64,000 bases of DNA, from NCBI RefSeq assembly GCF_046105845.1, contig NZ_CP151004.1. One strand, given 5' to 3'. Made by a program: the position numbers and the translations under genes. A model generated the notes under the pieces. That model was not told the origin of the DNA, searched no databases, and saw nothing but the letters and a program-made list of their open reading frames with translations. Source of the stretch: Escherichia coli. GTDB lineage: Bacteria > Pseudomonadota > Gammaproteobacteria > Enterobacterales > Enterobacteriaceae. Position 1 is the stretch's first letter. Every line of letters starts with the position of its first letter. This document shows positions 27,314-55,776 of this stretch, one piece after another.

Positions 27314-27863
27314 TGAGATAATTTCCTGATGAACGAATTAACGAACATAGGCAGACACAAATAATGGCGTCTGCTTGTCAGAAAAACCGGGGATTTCCCG
27401 GTTTCCTTTTCCGCAGAAAAGGAAATACCTTTATGTAAGAAAGTACACCGCCACCTAATATATCCAGTGTCTGTAGCCACTCATCAGGTGGTTGGGCGCG
27501 GGATTATATTTTTATTTATGGGTAAAAATTTAGCTTTTTGTGCAAGTTATTAAATAGATACTTAAGTTATATTTCTTACTCTGCGGGCAGTGAATAATTC
27601 ATTATTAAGAGTGAATAATAATGACCTGTCTTTAATTAATCGCTATTGGGAATACGTCGAAGTAGGTATATACACCAGGATAAACCAATATATTTTTTAT
27701 GGATATTCATTTTCCTTCATCAGACTGTGAATTGCAGGGATATCGAACTTGCACGACTCATCGCAACACTCAAACAGATTTATGAATTTCGTTCATAACC
27801 CCTGACAAATCCTGCCGTCTAATCGAGCTTTTCCCTTTACGTTATGCTTCTCATGAACGATAA

Positions 27864-30730
<2,867 letters not shown>

Positions 30731-30870
30731 CTATTATTTTAGCCACATTATTAGTAACAATGATAATCTGGCTGTATCGAAAATAATTCTAAACTTTCAG
30801 GAGATTTATTATGAATAAACGTATCCTCACGATTGCGCCATTCTTCTTACCGATATTCTGACACATATCA

Positions 30871-31797
30871 TCAATTTTCGAGTTTTACTCTTTTCTCCAC
30901 CATAAAATCAATAAAAGCACGAACTTTAGAGGGCATTCTCACCCGTGATGAAACATATATATAAAATCCAGGAAATGAAACGGCCCAATCCTCAAGAATC
31001 GGCTGTAACTTGCCCGCATTAATATGTTCAGCGATTGCAAAATCCAGATGTTGAATGATACCCGTTCCATTCAGCGCCATTCGTATCATGCTTTCGTCAT
31101 CATTAGAAATATACTTACCTGACACCTCTATTTCGAACTCTTCATTACCCCCCACAACATTCGAAAACTCCCATGCAGAGAGTGCACCGCTACTTTTATG
31201 CCGCAACCGAAGACAATTATGGTTACTCAATTCCTGAGGCGTTTCAGGAATACCGTGTTCTTTTAAATAATCTGGCGATGCCACAGTAACCAGTTTAATA
31301 AGCGGAGAAACAGGAACGGCAGTCATATGCTCATCCAGTCCTTGCTCAAGACGTATGCCCACATCACAGCCGTCCGCAATAATGTTAGATAAACCGTCAT
31401 CCATAATGAGTTCTATCTTTGTTTTGGGGTAACGAGTAAGAAACTCGCCAATATGAGGCTCAACAAGCATCCGTGCTGCAACACGGGAGGAATTTATTCT
31501 CAACAGGCCTGTAGGTTCAAGTTGGGTATCACCAACATCTTTCAAAGCATCATCAATTTGTCCCAAAGCCGACACCAGCACTTCATACAGACGCTGTCCT
31601 TCCTCAGTAAGCGACATATTGCGGGTCGTACGGTATATCAGCTTGGTGTTAAGACGTTCCTCAAGAGATTTTAAATTCTGGGACAATGCGGCCCGCGTAA
31701 TACCCATTTCAGAAGCGGCTCTGGAAAAACTGCCGGCACGAACAATAAGCGCAAACCAGGCAAGAGAAGGCAAAATTGAAGGCTCTATTTTCATCAT
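30871..31797 (-). CDS. LysR-family transcriptional regulator
   Basis: LysR HTH (LAWFALIVRAGSFSRAASEMGITRAALSQNLKSLE); start taken at MMKIEP. Confidence 0.8.
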   Translation of the reverse strand: MMKIEPSILPSLAWFALIVRAGSFSRAASEMGITRAALSQNLKSLEERLNTKLIYRTTRNMSLTEEGQRLYEVLVSALGQIDDALKDVGDTQLEPTGLLRINSSRVAARMLVEPHIGEFLTRYPKTKIELIMDDGLSNIIADGCDVGIRLEQGLDEHMTAVPVSPLIKLVTVASPDYLKEHGIPETPQELSNHNCLRLRHKSSGALSAWEFSNVVGGNEEFEIEVSGKYISNDDESMIRMALNGTGIIQHLDFAIAEHINAGKLQPILEDWAVSFPGFYIYVSSRVRMPSKVRAFIDFMVEKRVKLEN

Positions 31798-31953
31798 TGT
31801 AAACCTTAACTTAACACTGTGATAGATATTAGACCATTGATGATAACCAATACAAGTCATACTATTACGCCGTTCTCGATATGAACACAAATGCCAGTTG
31901 CGGATAATAGAAATGATATTTAAATCTGTTTAGGCAAATCCCCGGAGCTTGAA

Positions 31954-32874
31954 ATGAAAACTGTTTCGATAAAACACACTTACTGGGATATAGCTGCTGA
32001 TATCTATTTCCCTGACGATTTTAATAGTAAAAAAAAGTATCCTGCCATTATCAGCGCCCATCCAATTGGAAGCTGCAAAGAACAGACATCGGGTAGTGTG
32101 TATGGTGCCGCCCTGGCAAAAGCTGGCTTTATCGTCATTGCTTTTGATGCCAGTTTTCAGGGAAGCAGCGGTGGGGAACCGCGTTATCTGGAAGATCCAA
32201 CAATGCGAGTAAAAGACTTCAGCATTGTCGTTGATTACCTTACCAGCTTACCTTACGTTGATGCCGGGCGTATTGGTGTACTGGGTATTTGTGGTGGAGG
32301 TGGATATGCCATTAATGCCGCAATGACAGAACGTCGAATTAAAGCTATTGGTACTGTCACGGGTGCAAACTACGGGCGTCTTATGCGTGAGGGATTTACA
32401 GCGTTTAATCCTATCGGAGCACTCGAAGCAATGGCGCAACAAAGAACAGACGAAGCTAACGGCGCAAAACTTCGCGTAGATGATTTACTCCCCTCTTCTC
32501 CAGATGCAGCTCTTGAAGCGGGATTAACAGAAATAGACCTTTTTGAAGCCACAGAATATTATCGTTCGCCACGAGGCTGTGCACCTAATGGGGTAAATCG
32601 TTCGCTATTCTCACATCAGACTGTTGCCGTGGGTTGGGATGCATTTCATCTTGCAGAAGTCCTGTTAACTCAACCAATAATGGTTGTGGTGGGCGATAGA
32701 GTGGGCGCATTTGGTGCCTACCGTGACGGCTGCGAAATTATTGGCCGCGCTGCCTCAAAACATAAAGAGCTGGTCGTGGTTGAAGGTTATTCACATTACG
32801 ACCTGTATGATAAGCCAGAACCTGTGAAACAGGCGCTCGATAAATTAATTCCTTTTTATAAAACACATTTGTAA
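31954..32874 (+). CDS. Alpha/beta hydrolase, dienelactone-hydrolase-like (GxCxG nucleophile elbow)
   Basis: 306 aa; GICGGGGYAI motif; divergent from LysR gene. Confidence 0.7.
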   Translation: MKTVSIKHTYWDIAADIYFPDDFNSKKKYPAIISAHPIGSCKEQTSGSVYGAALAKAGFIVIAFDASFQGSSGGEPRYLEDPTMRVKDFSIVVDYLTSLPYVDAGRIGVLGICGGGGYAINAAMTERRIKAIGTVTGANYGRLMREGFTAFNPIGALEAMAQQRTDEANGAKLRVDDLLPSSPDAALEAGLTEIDLFEATEYYRSPRGCAPNGVNRSLFSHQTVAVGWDAFHLAEVLLTQPIMVVVGDRVGAFGAYRDGCEIIGRAASKHKELVVVEGYSHYDLYDKPEPVKQALDKLIPFYKTHL

Positions 32875-33118
32875 TAATCTTACAGGGAGATTCCTTATCT
32901 CCCTGACATTTATCCTTTATTGACTACACAACAATAATGAAATTACTCAAAAAGAAATTTCATTAAAGAAACAAAAAAGCAGTAACTCAATCATTAAGAT
33001 TATTAGAAACCCTTTGAAGGGATTATAAATAAAGCCAGAAATCTTGGTTCCAAAGCTGGCAACAACTAACCAGTTAAAACATACGCATCAAAATCAGATA
33101 AACATTTGAGGTATTGTT

Positions 33119-34261
33119 ATGACAAATAAACACCCATCATTGTTTTCTCCTTTTATGCTGACAGAAAAAATAAAGCTACGTAATCGTATCGTTATGGCTC
33201 CTATGACGACCTGGTCAGCGAATCCTGATGGAACCATCTCTGAGCAAGAACTCGAATTTTATAAACGCCGCTCACAAAATGTTGGTTTAGTAATAACAGG
33301 ATGCACCTATGTCACGCCAAGCGGCATTGGGTTTACTCATGAATTTGCCGCGTATGACGACCGTTTCATTAACAGCCTTGAAAAGTTAGCAGCTGCAGCC
33401 AAAAGTGGCGGTGCTCCGGCTATTTTGCAGATTTTCCACGCCGGTAATAAAGCCATCCCGGAGCTTGTGCCAAATAACGATGTTATTAGTGCCAGCGCAT
33501 CAAGCGTAAAATCTGGTGATTTTATGAAGAGAGTGGTACAAAGCAGGGAAATGACTGAAAACGAAATTCAGGAAACCATTAGAGCATTCGGAGATGTCAC
33601 AAAAAGGGCGATTAAAGCAGGTTTTGATGGCGTTGAACTTCATGGTGCGCACGGATTCCTTCTGCAGAATTTCTTCTCCCCTCTATTTAACCAGCGTAAT
33701 GACCGATGGGGAGGAGATCTTGAAGGACGTATGCGCTTCCCGCTGGCCGTATTACAGGAAGTAAAAAATGTAGTCTATGAATATGCGACAAAGCCCTTTG
33801 CTATCGGTTACAGAATATCTCCTGAAGAATCTGTAACAGGGGGGCTGCGGATAGAGGATACTTATAAACTCCTTGATCGACTCATTTCATCCGGTATTTC
33901 GTATATACATACCTCGCTGGTCAGTATTAACGATAGCTACCCTGTTGAGTCGCCAAATGGCCCCCGAACTATTGAATTGATTTTAAATCATATTGCAGGC
34001 AGAGTGCCGGTAATCGCTGCAGGTAAAATACGCACACCGTCTCAGGCTCAAGAAGCAATTTCCGCTGGCCTGCCACTTGTTGCGATCGGTAAAGGGCTGG
34101 TGATAAATCCAGAATGGGTGACTTTAGCTGAATCAGGTAGAGGCCATGAAATTCAAACAACCCTTAATCCACAACTTGTTCCTGAATTAACCATTCCGGA
34201 TAAACTATGGGATCAAATTCAGGCATCGAAAGGAACTGGCTGGTTTCCGTTAATGGATTAA
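33119..34261 (+). CDS. NADH:flavin oxidoreductase, Old Yellow Enzyme family
   Basis: 380 aa; OYE-like N-terminus (RNRIVMAPMTT...QIFHAGNKA...ELHGAHGFLLQNFFSP). Confidence 0.8.
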   Translation: MTNKHPSLFSPFMLTEKIKLRNRIVMAPMTTWSANPDGTISEQELEFYKRRSQNVGLVITGCTYVTPSGIGFTHEFAAYDDRFINSLEKLAAAAKSGGAPAILQIFHAGNKAIPELVPNNDVISASASSVKSGDFMKRVVQSREMTENEIQETIRAFGDVTKRAIKAGFDGVELHGAHGFLLQNFFSPLFNQRNDRWGGDLEGRMRFPLAVLQEVKNVVYEYATKPFAIGYRISPEESVTGGLRIEDTYKLLDRLISSGISYIHTSLVSINDSYPVESPNGPRTIELILNHIAGRVPVIAAGKIRTPSQAQEAISAGLPLVAIGKGLVINPEWVTLAESGRGHEIQTTLNPQLVPELTIPDKLWDQIQASKGTGWFPLMD

Positions 34262-34733
34262 ATATCTATTACTCTCCCGAGAGTAAAACTATCAAATCAA
34301 TGAGTAACCGATACAGCCTCACAAATTCTTTCAGATAATTAACCCGTCACTGCGGCACGTTCTCTCGTAAGGCGTGCCTGCAGTGTAATCCAGTATGTAT
34401 CTGGCATAGTTGACGGTTTAATAGAACTCAATTCCTCTCCCAGGTCACCAACAACGATATCTTGTATAACACCCCAGGAGATACGACATTATGATGAGAT
34501 GAGGTATGCTCCTCAGCGCCAATCAACGCCAGGGCTGGGCCAGTTTTGAGATCAGACTCATTCCCGGACTGACTTCAGGCGACATATATCAATGACGTTG
34601 GGGCAATAAAAGATAGCCGATGTAATACATCTATTCAAATTTGTGATACATGTCAAAAAATTGGTTGACCAAACTCGTTATTTATATAAGGGCACTTACG
34701 AAGTGCACTCTTTTTTAAAGCGAGGAAGTACCA

Positions 34734-34835
34734 ATGAAAGAGAATAAAGTACAGCAAATCAGTCATAAACTGATTAATATCGTTGTTTTTATCGCAATTG
34801 TAGAATACGCCTATTTATTTCTCCATTTCTATTAA
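34734..34835 (+). CDS. ykgR: Small membrane protein YkgR (33 aa)
   Basis: ORF MKENKVQQISHKLINIVVFIAIVEYAYLFLHFY; matches recalled YkgR; hydrophobic C-terminal half. Confidence 0.7.
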   Translation: MKENKVQQISHKLINIVVFIAIVEYAYLFLHFY

Positions 34836-35157
34836 TAACGGCAGTAAACTGTTCACTTCAGTGATATTTAAAATATGCATCCTCTCCCTTTTTGTAAGTA
34901 ATTATTATATCCGTGGGAGAGGAATACACGCTGTCAGGTAATCAATCATACTGCGATAAATCATCGGCCAGTAAAGTGGAGATAACCTCCATTCTCGAAA
35001 AAGCGAAACTATCATCAATCACTCATCCAGGCGTTTATGGGAGCGTCGCCAACGGCTGCTAACAATGCCAGACTTCCCCGTTGGGGAAATTCCACATACC
35101 ACAAATAGTCACAGGGATTGGGTGTTGAAATGATCCGGATGAGCATGTATCTTTATG

Positions 35158-35175
35158 GTTATGTTATAACATAAC
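35158..35175. promoter_or_regulatory. Zur box: perfect 18-bp palindrome GTTATGTTATAACATAAC upstream of ykgM
   Basis: Perfect palindrome read directly 9 bp upstream of the ykgM start; matches Zur-box consensus. Confidence 0.85.
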
Positions 35176-35183
35176 AGGTAAAA

Positions 35184-35450
35184 ATGATGAAACCCAATAT
35201 CCATCCTGAGTATCGTACTGTGGTGTTCCATGACACCAGTGTTGATGAGTACTTTAAAATCGGCTCGACTATCAAAACAGACCGTGAGATTGAGCTGGAT
35301 GGCGTAACGTATCCGTACGTGACAATTGATGTCTCTTCGAAATCGCACCCGTTCTATACAGGGAAGCTGAGAACAGTAGCATCAGAAGGAAATGTTGCAC
35401 GGTTCACCCAACGTTTTGGTCGTTTTGTTAGCACGAAAAAGGGGGCGTGA
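35184..35450 (+). CDS. ykgM: Zinc-independent ribosomal protein L31 paralog (type B)
   Basis: 88 aa [18 protein letters not shown]...; lacks the Zn-ribbon Cys pairs; Zur box upstream. Confidence 0.92.
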
Positions 35451-35590
35451 TGAAAGTCCTTAACTCTCTGCGTACCGCAAAAGAACGCCATCCAGACTGT
35501 CAGATTGTGAAGCGAAAAGGACGGCTATATGTGATTTGTAAATCTAATCCACGTTTTAAGGCCGTTCAGGGTCGTAAGAAAAAACGTTGA
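35450..35590 (+). CDS. ykgO: Ribosomal protein L36 paralog
   Basis: 46 aa [46 protein letters not shown]; start overlaps ykgM stop (TGATG). Confidence 0.9.
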
Positions 35591-35996
35591 TTCAAAATTC
35601 GACGGATTAATGATATTTGTCTGATTAATAATCAGACCTGATTAATGTTGGTGTATTTATTACACCAGCATTAATTTTCTTGGGGATGTATCTTCCTGTT
35701 CATTTAAGGTCAACTGCCTGACGTTTCTCTCCGAATATTCCATTATATTAATGTTGACTTGTTAACCAGGTGCGCCCTGTATGCTGGCATCAACTCTCTT
35801 TTAGACTGAACACGCCACTCAGTTTCCTCCCTTTGCGACGCAGCCTGCATTTACACTCAAACGGTTAAGATGATAAATGTGGTAAATCTGTTGGTACTGA
35901 CATAAAAACGTTTACGTCACAGGAACGGCCTGATCCACCGGTAACCCCATCGCCGACGTTCGAGTGCCAGTTAGAGTAACGCGCACAGATGACTGA

Positions 35997-44107: not shown

Positions 44108-44355
44108 ATATGCAATAATTAATTGCACTGCCCCGCCAGCTATAATCGCGGGGCTTCGTTTTTCAGGGATAACAAAACCCGAAACTTCTTCCATCTGCCA
44201 GCAACAATGCCTCTTCCTCTATAGTGTTCTCCGGATCTACAGCATCCTGAAGTAGCGCGATGTACTCATTGGCTATCTGCGTCAGAAAGTTAAAAACAAT
44301 GTTTTTAACCTATAAAAATGGCGCTGTATTTGCGCCATTTTTATCATTCAATGCA

Positions 44356-51628: not shown

Positions 51629-52786
51629 TTATTTCAGTTTGGTCTGGAAAAATTGTTCGAACTTCGCGAAAGGTATTTTTCCGGCCACGTTATCGTACAG
51701 GTCCACGTGATTTGCCCCTGGTACCACCACCAACTCTTTGTCTTTACTGCCAACCGCCTTGTAAGCATCTTCAGCAAAATAGCGTGAATGTGCTTTCTCA
51801 CCGGTCACAATCAGCGTCGGAATGGTGATTTCACTGGCGTAGCTCAACAGCGGCATATTCATAAATGACAGCGGCATCGTTGCCGTCCACGCCCCGGTAG
51901 AGTTAACGGAACGTTCGTGGAAGCCGCGCGGCATGCGATAGTAGTCAAAGAACTCTTTCAGTACCGGATGAGGATTTGCCGGCAGCGTTTCTGGCAGAAT
52001 GCGCTCGCCAGCACTGACCTTGCCGTTGCTATCGACATTAATATCATGACCACCGTGAGCGAACGTTCCGCTCTGCGCATCCTGCCAGCGCTGTTCATTC
52101 AGATATTGCAGAACGGCACGACGGTCGGCGGTAGAATAACGGTCTTTGCCATCCCCCACACCATGACCCATCGCCCGGCTCATGTCATACATCACGCTGG
52201 TAGCTACCGCTTTAACGCGGGTATCCATCGCCACGTCGTTCAGCGCCATGCCGCCCCAGCCACAAATACCGAGCAGCCCGATACGGTTGCGATCTACCTC
52301 TTTTTGCAGCCCTAAGAAATCCACCGCCGCGCTGAAATCTTCAGTGTTGATATCCGGTGAGGCGACGTTTCGCGGATAGCCGCCGCTTTCCCCGGTGTAA
52401 GAAGGATCGAACGCCAGGGTAACAAACCCTCGTTCCGCCAGCGTCTGCGCATACAGGCCGCTGGATTGCTCTTTCACCGCGCCAAATGGCCCACTGACCG
52501 CAATCGCCGCCAGCTTGCGATCGCCACGGTCTTTAGGCAGGTAAAGATCGCCCACTAAGGTGATGCCATATCGGTTCGGGAACGAGACTTTACGGTGATC
52601 GACTTTCTGGCTCTCGGCGAACGTTTTATCCCATTTATCTGTCATGGACACAGGGGCATTAGGATTGGTTGAATCAGCATAACTCATTGTCGTGACCCCA
52701 CTTAATGATGCGAAAAGCAGCATGGTCGGCATCGCGGTTTTTAGCGTTCGGGTGAAGGCTTTCATAAAAATCCCCATAAAAAACAA
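51629..52786 (-). CDS. Secreted alpha/beta hydrolase, dienelactone-hydrolase-like (GxCxG)
   Basis: 385 aa; signal peptide; GICGWGG nucleophile elbow; paralog of 31954-32874. Confidence 0.7.
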   Translation of the reverse strand: MFFMGIFMKAFTRTLKTAMPTMLLFASLSGVTTMSYADSTNPNAPVSMTDKWDKTFAESQKVDHRKVSFPNRYGITLVGDLYLPKDRGDRKLAAIAVSGPFGAVKEQSSGLYAQTLAERGFVTLAFDPSYTGESGGYPRNVASPDINTEDFSAAVDFLGLQKEVDRNRIGLLGICGWGGMALNDVAMDTRVKAVATSVMYDMSRAMGHGVGDGKDRYSTADRRAVLQYLNEQRWQDAQSGTFAHGGHDINVDSNGKVSAGERILPETLPANPHPVLKEFFDYYRMPRGFHERSVNSTGAWTATMPLSFMNMPLLSYASEITIPTLIVTGEKAHSRYFAEDAYKAVGSKDKELVVVPGANHVDLYDNVAGKIPFAKFEQFFQTKLK

Positions 52787-52951
52787 CAGAGAGATACAGG
52801 TTTCCGACGGACAACGCTGCGGTGCTTTACTTTGATGGGGTCATTATAGTGAGCAGAATTAGTGCTGATTAGGGGGCGATTAATGCTAAGATTAATACCA
52901 TATTGTTATAAATTAATGCGGAGATTGCCGGCATGAAGGGGGGATGTTTCA

Positions 52952-53836
52952 ATGGCGAAAAGGGAGAACTACAACGAGCTGTACCTGTTTATGCAGGTGG
53001 TGCGGGAAGGCAGCTTTACCGCAGCGGCTCAGCGGCTGGGTCTTGCTCAGTCAGGAGTCAGCCGTTCTGTTCGCGAGCTTGAAGAAAGGCTCGGCGTCCA
53101 GCTGCTAGTGCGCACCACGCGTAAACTGTCGCTGACACAAGCAGGCGAGCAGCTCTACCAGAAGACGGCATCTGGATTTGAAATGTTAGATCTTGGGCTT
53201 GCCACGCTGGCGCACTATCGAGAGACGCCCTCCGGCACGGTGCGTATCAATGCCAGCCAGCACGCGATTGATAAATGCCTGCTGCCAAAGCTGGCGGTAT
53301 TTAAACAGCGATATCCTGATATCCGGCTTGAACTGATAAATGAGAGCCGGTTCGTCGATATCATCGAGGAAAGATTCGATGCAGGTGTCCGCCTGGGGCC
53401 TGAAGTCGGCCAGGGTATGGTCGCGGTACGCATCACGCCCGATATGGAGATGGCAATTGTGGGGACTCCGGAACATTTTCGTCGCTATGGTTTTCCGCAA
53501 ACCCCGGCGGATTTAAAGGCGCATCCCTGTATCGCCTATCAGTTTGCCGACGGCAGCGTATACCAGTGGGAACTCAATCAGGATGATAAAAAAATCACTC
53601 ATCGCCCTGAAGGGCAATGGGCCTTATCCGACAGCTATATGGAAGCAGAAGCCGCCCGGCTGGGCCTCGGATTGGCCTATGTTCCTGTTGAACTGGTCGC
53701 GGATGATTTAGAACACGGTAAGCTTATCAGGGTGTTGCAGCGTTACAGCCTGCGAATGGAGGGATTGTTTCTCTATTACCCTCATCGCAACGTCTCCCCC
53801 GCCCTGCGGATGGTCATTGATACATTGAAAATCTGA
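52952..53836 (+). CDS. LysR-family transcriptional regulator
   Basis: 294 aa; LysR HTH (LYLFMQVVREGSFTAAAQRLGLAQSGVSRSVRELEERLG); divergent from hydrolase gene. Confidence 0.8.
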   Translation: MAKRENYNELYLFMQVVREGSFTAAAQRLGLAQSGVSRSVRELEERLGVQLLVRTTRKLSLTQAGEQLYQKTASGFEMLDLGLATLAHYRETPSGTVRINASQHAIDKCLLPKLAVFKQRYPDIRLELINESRFVDIIEERFDAGVRLGPEVGQGMVAVRITPDMEMAIVGTPEHFRRYGFPQTPADLKAHPCIAYQFADGSVYQWELNQDDKKITHRPEGQWALSDSYMEAEAARLGLGLAYVPVELVADDLEHGKLIRVLQRYSLRMEGLFLYYPHRNVSPALRMVIDTLKI

Positions 53837-54061
53837 ACGTTAATAACGACCGACTCTTCACTGTGCAACATTGTGTCAGGTAGTCCCTCTGCGTTCAATT
53901 CCAGGGTCTGCTTTGAGCGAGAAAGAGGGGACTATCCAGCAATGGAGATCACCCAAAAGAAAAAACCACCTGGCTCCCTCGACAACCTTCATCCAGGCAT
54001 TTAGCCTCAATCAACATTTTTATATCTGTCAGGTTACTTCATGATGAAAACTGATCATTAT

Positions 54062-54315
54062 CGTTGTTTTTGTTGCAATAGTAGAATACGCGTATTTATT
54101 CCTCCATCTCTATTAATAACGGCAATAAACTGTTCACTTCACTGATATTTAAAATATGTATCCTTTTCAAGCTGTTCAGCGGCGTAAGAAAAAGTATTAA
54201 TTATGAATTCGACGATTTAACCATATCTGTCTGATTGGTAATCATCCGTGATTAATGTTGGTCTATTGATTACGCCAGCATTAACCGCTTAGGGATGTAT
54301 TCTTCCTGTTGATAT
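54062..54315 (+). repeat. Degenerate paralogous copy of the ykgR 3' half fused to the ykgO 3' end plus downstream sequence
   Basis: About 90% identity over about 100 bp to 34776-34885 and about 75-80% over about 145 bp to 35561-35705, by eye; ykgM/ykgO and the Zur box are missing from this copy. Confidence 0.7.
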
Positions 54316-54607: not shown

Positions 54608-54745
54608 TCATTGTTTTTCTGCCTGTAAAGAAATTTCTTTTTCAGTGCTGTCGATGGTTGAACCGACGGCAGTAATCGTTTTGGCGACGCTACTGAAGGA
54701 TATTAAAGACAGTGTAACCACAACAATTAAAGAATAGATAATATT
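54608..54745 (-). CDS. Hypothetical small hydrophobic protein (about 45 aa from MNIIYSLIVVVTLSLISF)
   Basis: ORF only; single predicted TM/signal-like segment; no homology recognised. Confidence 0.2.
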   Translation of the reverse strand, partial: NIIYSLIVVVTLSLISFSSVAKTITAVGSTIDSTEKEISLQAEKQ

Positions 54746-54963
54746 CATGCTAATTCTCCTGACAATTGAGAGGATGAGTTTTATATACAAAGGCATTAAA
54801 TATGAGTCATGTTTACTCCCTGTGAAAATAATCTTACTGTAATTAAACCTTCATCTCCTTCGGAGTGAGCAATGCATAATATAATGCATCTTGCTATTCA
54901 AAACAGTGGATATAAATTTTCCTCGCGACCTATTTAATAAAACGTGAATATAAAAGTTAGTCT

Positions 54964-55515
54964 TCAGTTTGCAGATGCAGTAGGTCTGATGGTAATTTCG
55001 GTTGTATCAACTGTTTCGGGAGATTCAATAATATGCCTTACAGCACGGGCAATATCCGCGGGTTGAAGTGCAACAGAACGGTAGGCGTCCATTGACTTCA
55101 TGGTTTCCACATGGGTAATGGTTGAAGCCAGTTCACTTTCTACAACCCCAGGATTTACGCAGGTCACACGGATTTTCGAGCTTTCCTGCCGTAAGCCATC
55201 CGAAATAGCCCGTACTGCAAATTTTGATGCACAATAGACTGCGCCTGTGGGCACAACAGAAAGGACACCAATAGAACCAAGATTGATTATCTGACCGGAA
55301 CCCTGTGCTTCCATCACCGGAAGTACAGCGCCAATTCCCCAAAGTACGCCTTTGATATTCACGTCAATAGTGAGTTCCCATTCATCTTGTTTTCCTGCTG
55401 CAAGCGGTGAAAGCGGCATAACGCCCGCATTATTGATAAGAACATCAACTCGCCCCCAGCTATCCAGCGCTGCTTGCACGAAATCGGCCATGGACTGCCG
55501 GTCTGTGACATCCAA
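54964..55515 (-). pseudogene. 5'-truncated short-chain dehydrogenase/reductase (SDR) gene
   Basis: Contains SDR catalytic region (NNAG, YCASK) but lacks the N-terminal Rossmann TGxxxGxG segment; reading frame terminates at the junction with the integrase fragment. Confidence 0.6.
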
Positions 55516-55686
55516 CTTGCATTTTCAGAAATGGGAGGCTGGGAGTCTATCGAAATGGTTCGTCGATATGCTCACCTCGCGCCTAATCACCTTACCGAAC
55601 ACGCACGGCAAATAGACTCAGTCCTGAACCCATCGGTCCCAAATTTGTCCCAGTCAAAAAATAAGAAAGGTACTAATGATGTGTAA
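55516..55686 (+). pseudogene. C-terminal fragment of a tyrosine (P4-type) integrase abutting thrW
   Basis: [20 protein letters not shown] is a typical integrase C-terminus including the catalytic Tyr region; ends 15 bp from the tRNA 3' end; no N-terminal or core domain present. Confidence 0.6.
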
Positions 55687-55700
55687 CTTATTGATTTAAA

Positions 55701-55776
55701 TGGTGCCGATAATAGGAGTCGAACCTACGACCTTCGCATTACGAATGCGCTGCTCTACCAACTGAGCTATATCGGC
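55701..55776 (-). tRNA. thrW: tRNA-Thr (anticodon CGU)
   Basis: 76-nt cloverleaf read on minus strand: GCCGATATAGCTCAGTTGGTAGAGCAGCGCATTCGTAATGCGAAGGTCGTAGGTTCGACTCCTATTATCGGCACCA; anticodon loop contains CGT. Confidence 0.93.

What the first reader, a model, noticed from the sequence alone, without database searches (positions are those of the whole stretch)
35158..35590. Zur-box-controlled ykgM-ykgO ribosomal protein paralogs with overlapping stop/start
A perfect 18-bp palindrome, GTTATGTTATAACATAAC, sits 9 bp upstream of ykgM. The encoded L31 paralog lacks zinc-ribbon cysteines, and ykgO (L36 paralog) is translationally coupled via TGATG. This is the known zinc-sparing response; it is noted because the locus is embedded between accessory blocks and is absent from the duplicated copy at 54062-54315.
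Basis: partly seen in the sequence, partly recalled or inferred. Interest (0 to 1): 0.3.

Follow-up and report, generated by a model that had tools for sequence, protein, structure and literature searches.

The report
Known zinc-repressed ykgM-ykgO ribosomal paralog operon
This is the ordinary, already well-studied E. coli operon that makes zinc-free versions of two ribosomal proteins when zinc is scarce, with its known Zur repressor binding site intact; the only mildly new detail is a decayed second copy of its flanks elsewhere in the window.

Summary
GTTATGTTATAACATAAC (35158-35175) is a perfect 18-bp palindrome and the only perfect palindrome of 16 bp or more in the window. It lies between a sigma-70-like promoter (TTGAAA-17-TATCTT, 35125-35153) and ykgM (35187-35450). 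ykgO (35450-35590) starts on the last base of the ykgM stop codon (TGATG).

Both proteins are 100% identical to E. coli K-12 YkgM and YkgO. The promoter and operator from the -35 hexamer through the ATG start codon are base-for-base identical to K-12. Published work on K-12 shows this operator is the tightest Zur site, with about 560-fold repression. Upstream of ykgM in seven gammaproteobacterial taxa, only this box is conserved. YkgM has no cysteine. YkgO keeps two of the four zinc ligands of L36.

Small corrections:
- The box ends 11 nt before the real start codon (8 nt before an extra in-frame ATG), not 9.
- Only the left flank is accessory (33% of E. coli genomes). The ecp operon on the right is in 91%.
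- The "duplicate" is at 54048-54310. It keeps the ykgR 3' part, the last ~37 nt of ykgO and the terminator, so it is a deletion remnant rather than an empty site.

Verdict: already known, low interest.

The parts
34734..34835 (+). ykgR, a 33-aa small membrane protein gene. It is the upstream neighbour, and its 3' two-thirds are part of the segment duplicated at 54048-54164.
   Evidence: ORF; annotated as ykgR in PCN033 and K-12; self-BLAST.
35125..35153 (+). Predicted sigma-70 promoter of ykgMO: -35 TTGAAA (35125-35130), 17-nt spacer, -10 TATCTT (35148-35153). The predicted start site falls at about 35160, inside the Zur box.
   Evidence: Consensus scan, 9 of 12 matches; identical to K-12. The start site is inferred, not measured.
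35158..35175 (.). Zur box: the perfect 18-bp inverted repeat GTTATGTTA|TAACATAAC, operator for two Zn2-Zur dimers.
   Evidence: Fits RxxxYRxxR*YxxYRxxxY and 19 of 20 positions of TGWNAYRWTATAWYRTNWCA (motifs from PMC4219657). Identical to K-12. It is the only conserved upstream block across 7 taxa.
35176..35179 (+). Shine-Dalgarno-like AGGT for ykgM, 7 nt before ATG 35187.
   Evidence: Read from the sequence; an AG-rich block at the same place in orthologues.
35187..35450 (+). ykgM, encoding type B (zinc-free) ribosomal protein bL31B, 87 aa, no cysteines. An extra in-frame ATG lies at 35184.
   Evidence: NCBIfam NF002462, 122.9 bits against a cut-off of 86; Pfam PF01197; 100% identical to K-12 YkgM; PDB 6i7v chain identical over 68 residues; alignment to RpmE.
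35438..35452 (+). ykgM/ykgO junction: Shine-Dalgarno-like AAGGGGG (35438-35444), then TGATG, in which stop TGA (35448-35450) and start ATG (35450-35452) share one base.
   Evidence: Sequence; ORF table; annotated coordinates in PCN033 and K-12. No significant local RNA structure (z +0.5).
35450..35590 (+). ykgO, encoding type B ribosomal protein bL36B, 46 aa. It keeps C17 and C30 but has lost the other two zinc ligands of RpmJ.
   Evidence: NCBIfam NF002021, 91 bits against a cut-off of 70; Pfam PF00444; 100% identical to K-12 YkgO; PDB 6i7v; alignment to RpmJ.
35640..35682 (.). Terminator-like hairpin between the convergent genes ykgO and ykgL: a 16-bp stem (35640-35655 with 35661-35676), then TTTTCTT. 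It is retained in the duplicate copy.
   Evidence: Inverted repeat I1. Fold of 35591-35690 gives -31.2 kcal/mol, z -5.5, with 0 of 200 shuffles as stable. Aligned with copy B.
54048..54310 (+). Decayed second copy: ykgR 3' part (pseudogene lacking its N-terminus), joined directly to the last ~37 nt of ykgO (frameshifted ...VQRRKKKY*) and the terminator hairpin. The promoter, Zur box, ykgM and most of ykgO are missing.
   Evidence: Self-BLAST; alignments; annotated as partial ykgR in PCN033 and O157:H7; present in 589 of 5426 genomes.

Best explanation
This is the native E. coli ykgM-ykgO operon, a zinc-starvation switch for two ribosomal proteins.

When zinc is sufficient, two Zn2-Zur dimers bind the 18-bp inverted repeat at 35158-35175. 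The repeat starts 4 bp after the predicted -10 hexamer and covers the predicted transcription start, so bound Zur blocks RNA polymerase. In K-12 this gives about 560-fold repression.

When zinc falls, Zur releases the DNA and one short-leader mRNA is made, ending at the hairpin at 35640-35682. That mRNA encodes bL31B (no cysteines) and bL36B (two of four zinc ligands lost). ykgO is read from a start codon that overlaps the ykgM stop, so the two proteins are probably made together.

The zinc-free proteins take the places of zinc-binding L31 and L36 in the ribosome. bL31B additionally represses translation of rpmE (L31), which completes the swap.

What is shown here: the sequence anatomy, identity to K-12, family membership and conservation of the operator. 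What comes from published K-12 work: Zur binding, the fold repression, incorporation into ribosomes and repression of rpmE. What is inferred: the start site, the promoter-occlusion geometry, translational coupling, the terminator, and that this strain behaves like K-12.
For: The window is E. coli, 100% identical to strain PCN033 across the locus.

The proteins are 100% identical to K-12 YkgM and YkgO and score above the NCBIfam cut-offs for type B L31 and L36. PDB 6i7v, an E. coli ribosome structure, contains chains identical to both.

YkgM has none of the four RpmE cysteines. YkgO lacks C11 and H33 of RpmJ.

Promoter and operator from TTGAAA to the ATG are identical to K-12. The promoter-like site ends at 35153.

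The box fits the structure-based Zur motifs of PMC4219657. That paper reports the L31p operator as the tightest of the four (Kd-app 0.025e-18 M2) with 560-fold in vivo repression.

In E. coli, Salmonella, K. aerogenes, K. pneumoniae, Enterobacter, Proteus and Pseudoalteromonas, the only conserved upstream block is this box. The neighbouring genes differ in the six of these loci that carry annotation (none is annotated at the Proteus locus).

PMC9825181 shows Zur represses ykgMO and that L31p represses L31 translation.

The locus is present in 5061 of 5426 complete E. coli genomes at 95% identity or more.
Against: Nothing in the data contradicts this explanation. The limits are as follows.

- No expression or binding data exist for this strain, and the zur gene lies outside the window.
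- The transcription start is predicted only from a 9-of-12 consensus match, and such matches are no more frequent here than in shuffles.
- A perfect 18-bp palindrome somewhere in 64 kb is not rare by chance (59 of 200 shuffles).
- The skeletal purine/pyrimidine Zur motif is uninformative (247 matches against 269 expected).
- ykgO has its own Shine-Dalgarno-like sequence, so strict translational coupling is not required.
Confidence: 0.95

Rival explanations
1. The palindrome acts mainly at the RNA level. As part of the 5' leader it would form a hairpin next to the ribosome-binding site and control translation or stability of ykgM mRNA, rather than serving as a DNA operator.
For: RNA 35158-35200 folds with the palindrome as a 7-bp hairpin directly before the AGGT, at -6.4 kcal/mol.
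Against: The fold is not unusual (z -1.66; 12 of 200 shuffles fold as well). The predicted start site at about 35160 lies inside the left arm, so the full hairpin may not be transcribed. Across taxa the box is conserved as an exact sequence, with no compensatory changes. Published EMSA and footprinting show Zur binds this DNA (PMC4219657).
Confidence: 0.03
2. The palindrome is a chance AT-rich palindrome, or the site of another regulator such as Fur, and ykgMO in this strain is not under Zur control.
For: One or more perfect 18-bp palindromes appear in 30% of shuffled windows. Fur-family boxes are all AT-rich inverted repeats.
Against: The sequence is identical to the experimentally defined K-12 Zur operator. 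It matches the specific 20-mer Zur pattern at 19 of 20 positions and is the only hit in the window. It is the sole conserved upstream element in seven taxa.
Confidence: 0.01
3. The main role of the operon is not zinc sparing. Instead it would remodel ribosomes in stationary phase and provide regulation, with bL31B acting as a translational repressor of rpmE; zinc would be only one of several inputs.
For: PMC9825181 reports L31p and L36p are more abundant in stationary-phase ribosomes and that L31p represses L31 translation. PMC7363858 (listed) studies phenotypic differences between bL31A and bL31B.
Against: This reading is compatible with Zur control rather than an alternative to it. It changes the emphasis on physiological benefit, not the mechanism at this locus. 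The operator and the cysteine losses point directly to zinc.
Confidence: 0.3

Closest known systems
E. coli K-12 ykgM-ykgO (L31p/L36p, bL31B/bL36B) operon with its PL31p Zur operator
   Same: The proteins are 100% identical. The promoter, Zur box, Shine-Dalgarno sequence and double ATG are identical. The TGATG junction is the same, and so are the neighbours ykgR on one side and ykgL, ecpR on the other.
   Different: This strain keeps a 6.5-kb oxidoreductase/LysR block upstream that K-12 has lost (K-12 carries only the ykgP pseudogene there). ykgL is frameshifted here. This strain also carries the decayed second copy near thrW, where K-12 has the CP4-6 prophage.
ykgM-ykgO (rpmE2-rpmJ2) operons of Salmonella, Klebsiella, Enterobacter, Proteus and Pseudoalteromonas
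   Same: They share the gene pair, a tight junction (1-nt overlap to 5-nt gap), and a GTTATGTTATAACATAAC-type box 8 to 15 nt before the start codon.
   Different: The chromosomal neighbourhood differs: ylaB/ylaC in Salmonella, K. aerogenes and Enterobacter, and a LacI-family regulator in K. pneumoniae. There is no ykgR. DNA identity is only 64-72% outside the box.
Zur-regulated zinc-free (C-) ribosomal protein paralogs in Gram-positives (B. subtilis ytiA/rpmEB, mycobacterial altRP operon)
   Same: The logic is the same: zinc-free paralogs of zinc-ribbon ribosomal proteins are repressed by Zur and made during zinc starvation. This rests on general knowledge plus PMC6094098 and PMC9825181, listed.
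   Different: The sets of paralogs, operator sequences and Zur lineages differ. None of this was tested here.
ykgM singleton on the tellurite/urease island of Shiga-toxin-producing E. coli (O157:H7 and others)
   Same: It is a full-length type B L31 gene, 80.7% identical in DNA to ykgM. Its -35/-10 region is recognisably homologous.
   Different: It has no ykgO. Its start codon is GTG. Other sequence occupies the canonical Zur-box position. It sits between ureG and a hok gene on a mobile island, and it is not present in this window.

Membership tests
E. coli Zur operator (Zur box) | 18-bp inverted repeat fitting RxxxYRxxR*YxxYRxxxY (PMC4219657) | tested here: met
   G-TTA-T-G-TT-A*T-AA-C-A-TAA-C fits at every R/Y position. 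35158 is among the hits. The skeletal motif alone is not discriminating (247 hits against 269 expected).
E. coli Zur operator (Zur box) | Match to the two-dimer pattern TGWNAYRWTATAWYRTNWCA | tested here: met
   19 of 20 positions at 35157-35176. It is the only hit in the window with up to 2 mismatches (0.23 expected). K-12's own operator has the same single mismatch, because the sequences are identical.
E. coli Zur operator (Zur box) | Identity or near-identity to an operator shown to bind Zur | tested here: met
   Identical to K-12 from the -35 hexamer to the ATG. The K-12 PL31p operator was bound in EMSA and footprinting, with 560-fold repression (PMC4219657).
E. coli Zur operator (Zur box) | Overlaps the core promoter or transcription start, so that binding blocks RNA polymerase | tested here: inconclusive
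   The consensus scan puts the -10 hexamer at 35148-35153, 4 nt before the box. This is a prediction, with no measured start site for this sequence.
E. coli Zur operator (Zur box) | Zinc-dependent Zur binding and repression in this strain | not testable with these tools
   This needs EMSA or expression assays. The zur gene is outside the window.
Type B (zinc-free, C-) ribosomal protein bL31 | Scores above the curated cut-off of the type B L31 model | tested here: met
   NF002462: 122.9 bits against a cut-off of 86. The type A models score below their cut-offs (59 and 53.7 against 70).
Type B (zinc-free, C-) ribosomal protein bL31 | Lacks the two cysteine pairs that bind zinc in type A L31 | tested here: met
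   No cysteine in the 87 residues. RpmE C16, C18, C37 and C40 all align to non-cysteine residues.
Type B (zinc-free, C-) ribosomal protein bL31 | Occupies the L31 site in the ribosome | tested here: met
   PDB 6i7v chain D7, named '50S ribosomal protein L31 type B', is identical over residues 1-68. This is support by sequence identity, not an experiment on this strain.
Type B ribosomal protein bL36 | Scores above the curated cut-off of the type B L36 model | tested here: met
   NF002021: 91 bits against a cut-off of 70. PDB 6i7v chain C5 is identical over 45 residues.
Type B ribosomal protein bL36 | Incomplete zinc-ribbon ligand set | tested here: met
   RpmJ C11 aligns to H14 and RpmJ H33 aligns to F36. 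C14 and C27 are retained as C17 and C30. Whether the protein still binds metal was not tested.
Translationally coupled gene pair | Stop and start codons overlap (TGATG) | tested here: met
   TGA at 35448-35450 and ATG at 35450-35452. The same overlap occurs in K. pneumoniae and Pseudoalteromonas, while Salmonella, K. aerogenes and Enterobacter have gaps of 2 to 5 nt.
Translationally coupled gene pair | Translation of the downstream gene depends on translation of the upstream gene | not testable with these tools
   This needs a premature-stop or start-codon mutant of ykgM with a ykgO reporter. An independent AAGGGGG Shine-Dalgarno-like sequence 5 nt upstream means coupling need not be obligatory.

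The most novel reading that the evidence does not exclude
The segment at 54048-54310 may be the relic of a second, once-complete ykgR / Zur box / ykgM / ykgO / terminator cassette beside the thrW island-integration hotspot. A roughly 670-bp deletion between short direct repeats (ATCC..TTTT.AAG, at 34879-34898 and 35547-35561 in the intact copy) would have inactivated it, removing exactly the regulated part.

Strains that make Shiga toxin also carry a ykgM singleton on the tellurite/urease island with no Zur box at the usual position. Together these would mean the zinc-free paralog operon has been copied and moved repeatedly within Escherichia, and that extra copies are either lost or escape Zur control.
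Probability: 0.5. Interest if true: 0.2.

Novelty: already known. Interest (0 to 1): 0.08.

Why it matters
The locus is a textbook part of the bacterial zinc-starvation response, relevant to survival under host-imposed zinc limitation. Finding it intact in this strain adds nothing new. It is still a useful annotation anchor: the window is the ykgF-to-proA region of an E. coli chromosome. The small added value is evolutionary. A fixed deletion remnant of a second copy occurs in 589 of 5426 genomes, and an island-borne ykgM has no Zur box at the usual position. Both hint that gene dosage and regulation of these paralogs have been tried out more than once in the species.

Tried and rejected
1. 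The skeletal Zur motif RNNNYRNNRYNNYRNNNY gave 247 hits against 269 expected. It is useless as a test, so I relied on the specific 20-mer and on identity to K-12.

2. The repeat finder with a minimum length of 10 did not report the palindrome, because its arms are 9 nt. I verified it by pattern search and my own script.

3. Palindromy as a statistic was rejected as evidence in itself, because 59 of 200 shuffles contain an 18-bp palindrome.

4. I spent the single genome-contig scan on the conserved 26-mer downstream of ykgR, hoping to find an intact copy-B-type locus in another species. It returned only a 403-bp contig in a Sulfoacidibacillus thermotolerans assembly. Over the stretch aligned (contig bases 178-403, reaching K-12's ykgR region), that contig is identical to K-12, so it is most likely contamination. 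Dead end.

5. I searched for an intact second operon inside E. coli. The ykgO 5' part has essentially no second copy (5068 places in 5061 records). The extra ykgM places seen in distant mode proved, in the records inspected, to be a ykgM-only gene on the tellurite/urease island, not copy B.

6. 'ykgMO on plasmids': the 13 plasmid places appear to be laboratory K-12 plasmids of about 214-242 kb (probably F-prime plasmids), small fragments, and chromosomes or chromosome pieces deposited as plasmids, judging from record names and sizes. I did not inspect them further. They are not evidence of mobility.

7. Phage collection: no match.

8. Rfam found no RNA family at the locus.

9. Wider segmental duplication: only about 260 bp are alike at the DNA level. 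The LysR regulators and alpha/beta hydrolases near both copies are only 42% and 31% identical, too distant to claim one duplication event.

10. Reading L002 (K-12) from the Python sandbox failed because the file was not synced. I used protein comparison and DNA alignment instead.

Full report
WHAT IS IN THE SEQUENCE

Reading 34900-35900 shows GTTATGTTATAACATAAC at 35158-35175. It is its own reverse complement. A pattern search finds it once in the window even with three mismatches allowed (0.03 expected). My own scan shows it is the only perfect palindrome of 16 bp or more in the 64 kb.

Palindromy by itself is not strong evidence. In 200 shuffles that keep local composition, 59 contained at least one perfect 18-bp palindrome.

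Downstream, the ORF table gives an 88-codon ORF from ATG 35184 and a 47-codon ORF from GTG 35447. The starts annotated in strain PCN033 and in K-12 are ATG 35187 (87 aa) and ATG 35450 (46 aa). All six orthologues aligned have a single ATG that lines up with 35187. The box therefore ends 11 nt before the real start, and 8 nt before the extra ATG.

The ykgM stop TGA (35448-35450) and the ykgO ATG (35450-35452) share one base, giving TGATG as described. A Shine-Dalgarno-like AAGGGGG sits 5 nt upstream of the ykgO ATG.

WHAT THE GENES ARE

The window is E. coli. The 1-kb region is 100% identical to strain PCN033 and three others, and it is found in 5081 of 5426 complete genomes. The operon itself is in 5061 genomes, all at 95% identity or more.

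The two proteins score above the curated cut-offs of the NCBIfam models for type B L31 (122.9 against 86 bits) and type B L36 (91 against 70 bits). They score below the cut-offs of the type A L31 models, and Pfam agrees. They are 100% identical to K-12 YkgM and YkgO. PDB entry 6i7v, an E. coli ribosome, contains chains identical to both.

Aligned with K-12 RpmE, YkgM has non-cysteine residues at all four cysteine positions and no cysteine anywhere. Aligned with RpmJ, YkgO keeps two cysteines (C17, C30) but has H14 in place of C11 and F36 in place of H33.

THE OPERATOR

A sigma-70-like promoter, TTGAAA-17-TATCTT, occupies 35125-35153. This places the expected start site at about 35160, inside the left arm of the palindrome.

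From the -35 hexamer through the ATG start codon the sequence is base-for-base identical to K-12.

Gilston et al. [quoted passage not shown] The window's box fits the first exactly. It fits the second at 19 of 20 positions and is the only hit in the window. The skeletal purine/pyrimidine motif alone is uninformative (247 hits against 269 expected).

The same paper ranks the L31p operator as the most palindromic and the tightest of the four E. coli operators (Kd-app 0.025e-18 M2), with 560-fold repression in vivo.

COMPARATIVE EVIDENCE

A distant search of the plasmid collection happened to retrieve chromosomal or chromid ykgMO loci from Salmonella, Klebsiella aerogenes, K. pneumoniae, Enterobacter hormaechei, Proteus mirabilis and Pseudoalteromonas.

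Their neighbours differ from E. coli's. Salmonella, K. aerogenes and Enterobacter have ylaB/ylaC-type neighbours. K. pneumoniae has a LacI-family regulator. No gene is annotated around the Proteus locus.

In an alignment of the roughly 90 nt upstream of ykgM, the only conserved block is GTTAT(G/A)TTATAACATAAC. Everything else has diverged. This is a clean phylogenetic footprint of the operator.

The ykgM/ykgO junction is always tight, from a 1-nt overlap to a 5-nt gap, but the overlap itself is not universal.

HOW IT MOST LIKELY WORKS

With zinc, two Zn2-Zur dimers sit on 35158-35175, with a published footprint of about 30 bp. They cover the end of the -10 hexamer, the start site and the leader, and so block RNA polymerase.

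Without zinc, Zur leaves and a short-leader bicistronic mRNA is made. It probably ends at the strong hairpin at 35640-35676 followed by UUUUCUU. The fold of 35591-35690 is -31.2 kcal/mol, z -5.5, and 0 of 200 shuffles are as stable.

bL31B and bL36B then replace the zinc-binding L31 and L36. bL31B also represses rpmE translation through a hairpin in the rpmE leader (PMC9825181).

Evidence status:
- Shown here: the sequence anatomy, identity to K-12 and conservation.
- Taken from K-12 experiments: Zur binding, the fold repression, ribosome incorporation and the rpmE feedback.
- Inferred: the start site, promoter occlusion, coupling and termination.

RIVALS

An RNA-level role for the palindrome is weak. 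The hairpin is only -6.4 kcal/mol with z -1.66. The predicted start lies inside it. Conservation is of the exact sequence, with no compensatory changes.

Chance, or another regulator's site, is excluded for practical purposes by identity to the characterised operator.

A stationary-phase or regulatory role complements Zur control rather than replacing it.

THE FLANKS

"Embedded between accessory blocks" is half right.

The 6.5-kb block on the left (27800-34300) holds two aldo/keto reductases, two LysR regulators, an alpha/beta hydrolase and an NADH-flavin oxidoreductase. It is present at 80% coverage or more in only 1785 of 5426 genomes. In K-12 it is reduced to the ykgP pseudogene.

The ecp pilus operon on the right is present in 4936 of 5426 genomes.

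One genome lacking ykgMO (SC516) has an IS1 element in place of the genes from rclB through ykgO, consistent with an IS1-mediated deletion.

THE "DUPLICATED COPY"

Self-BLAST confirms it and refines it. Window 34767-34883 matches 54048-54164 at 90.6%. Window 35554-35700 matches 54164-54310 at 79%.

The copy therefore consists of three parts:
- the 3' two-thirds of ykgR, preceded in frame by two stop codons, and annotated as a partial pseudogene in PCN033 and O157:H7;
- fused directly to it, the last ~37 nt of ykgO, still recognisable as ...VQRRKKKY* after a 1-nt deletion;
- the terminator hairpin.

Because a piece of ykgO coding sequence survives, the copy descends from a locus that once had the operon. 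It is not an empty site.

The missing roughly 670 bp are bounded in the intact copy by similar short repeats: ATCCTCTCCCTTTTTGTAAG at 34879-34898 and ATCCACGTTTTAAGG at 35547-35561. That pattern is what a deletion between direct repeats would leave.

The remnant is present in 589 of 5426 genomes. No E. coli genome has a second copy of the ykgO 5' part (5068 places in 5061 records). So no intact version exists in this collection.

The origin of the copy therefore remains open.

The LysR and hydrolase genes near both copies are only distant paralogs (42% and 31% identity).

SIDE FINDING OUTSIDE THE WINDOW

Distant searches showed about 650 extra ykgM-like places in E. coli genomes. In the three plasmid-collection records that hold this divergent form, two of which were inspected, it is a full-length ykgM at 80.7% DNA identity, without ykgO. 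It lies between ureG and a hok gene on the tellurite/urease island of strains such as O157:H7 EDL933.

Its -35/-10 region is homologous to the native promoter, but unrelated sequence occupies the Zur-box position. I did not follow this further.

VERDICT

The finding is correct and describes a well-known system: Zur-repressed zinc-free paralogs of L31 and L36. It is identical in sequence to the K-12 locus on which the published work was done.

Novelty: already known. Interest: low. The remnant copy is a small curiosity of genome history.

Noticed in passing
window 54048-54310: Decayed second copy of the ykgR...ykgO-3'...terminator segment near thrW. The junction lies at short direct repeats, the ykgO tail is frameshifted, and the copy is present in 589 of 5426 E. 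coli genomes. No E. coli genome holds an intact version.
   Followed up: yes
L014 5820-6420 and L015 (O157:H7 EDL933 and strain B39 records; not in the window): A full-length ykgM paralog (80.7% nt identity, GTG start, no ykgO) lies between ureG and hok on the tellurite/urease island of Shiga-toxin-producing E. coli. The promoter is homologous, but other sequence occupies the Zur-box position. An AT-rich TTATAATTATATAACATATTG lies about 100 nt upstream.
   Followed up: partly
window 35660-35850 (- strand): ykgL, convergent with ykgO, is frameshifted here. Only the first ~25 residues match K-12 YkgL (75 aa), and PCN033 annotates it as a frameshifted pseudogene.
   Followed up: partly
window 27800-34300: A 6.5-kb block of two aldo/keto reductases, two LysR regulators, an alpha/beta hydrolase and an NADH-flavin oxidoreductase is present in only 33% of complete E. 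coli genomes. In K-12 it is reduced to the ykgP pseudogene.
   Followed up: yes
window 29780-32871 versus 51632-53833: The LysR regulator and alpha/beta hydrolase next to the intact operon have distant paralogs (42% and 31% identity) next to the remnant copy. This could be an old segmental paralogy or just shared family membership.
   Followed up: partly
window 44150-44350 (- strand): Rfam match to IS009 (RF02111), 190 bits against a gathering score of 117. By position it lies between ykgJ and yagU.
   Followed up: no
window 55474-55776: tRNA-Thr (thrW) at 55704-55776 (- strand) has an integrase fragment and a truncated SDR oxidoreductase gene beside it. This is a decayed island-integration site, at the position where K-12 carries the CP4-6 prophage.
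   Followed up: no
window 54608-54796 (- strand): A 62-aa ORF has a signal-peptide-like start. PCN033 annotates a 92-aa hypothetical protein in the corresponding region. It is unrelated to YkgL.
   Followed up: no
L012 (NZ_MPDK01000122.1, 403 bp, Sulfoacidibacillus thermotolerans assembly): Over bases 178-403, the stretch aligned against K-12, the contig is identical to the E. coli K-12 ykgR region. It is almost certainly E. coli contamination in that public assembly.
   Followed up: partly
plasmid records: All 'plasmid' hits to ykgMO appear to be laboratory K-12 plasmids of about 214-242 kb (probably F-prime plasmids carrying this chromosomal region), small fragments, or whole chromosomes and chromosome pieces deposited as plasmids. 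This is judged from record names and sizes only.
   Followed up: partly
L013 (E. coli SC516): One of the roughly 7% of genomes lacking ykgMO has an IS1 element directly between rclA and ykgL, replacing the genes from rclB to ykgO. This is consistent with an IS1-mediated deletion.
   Followed up: partly
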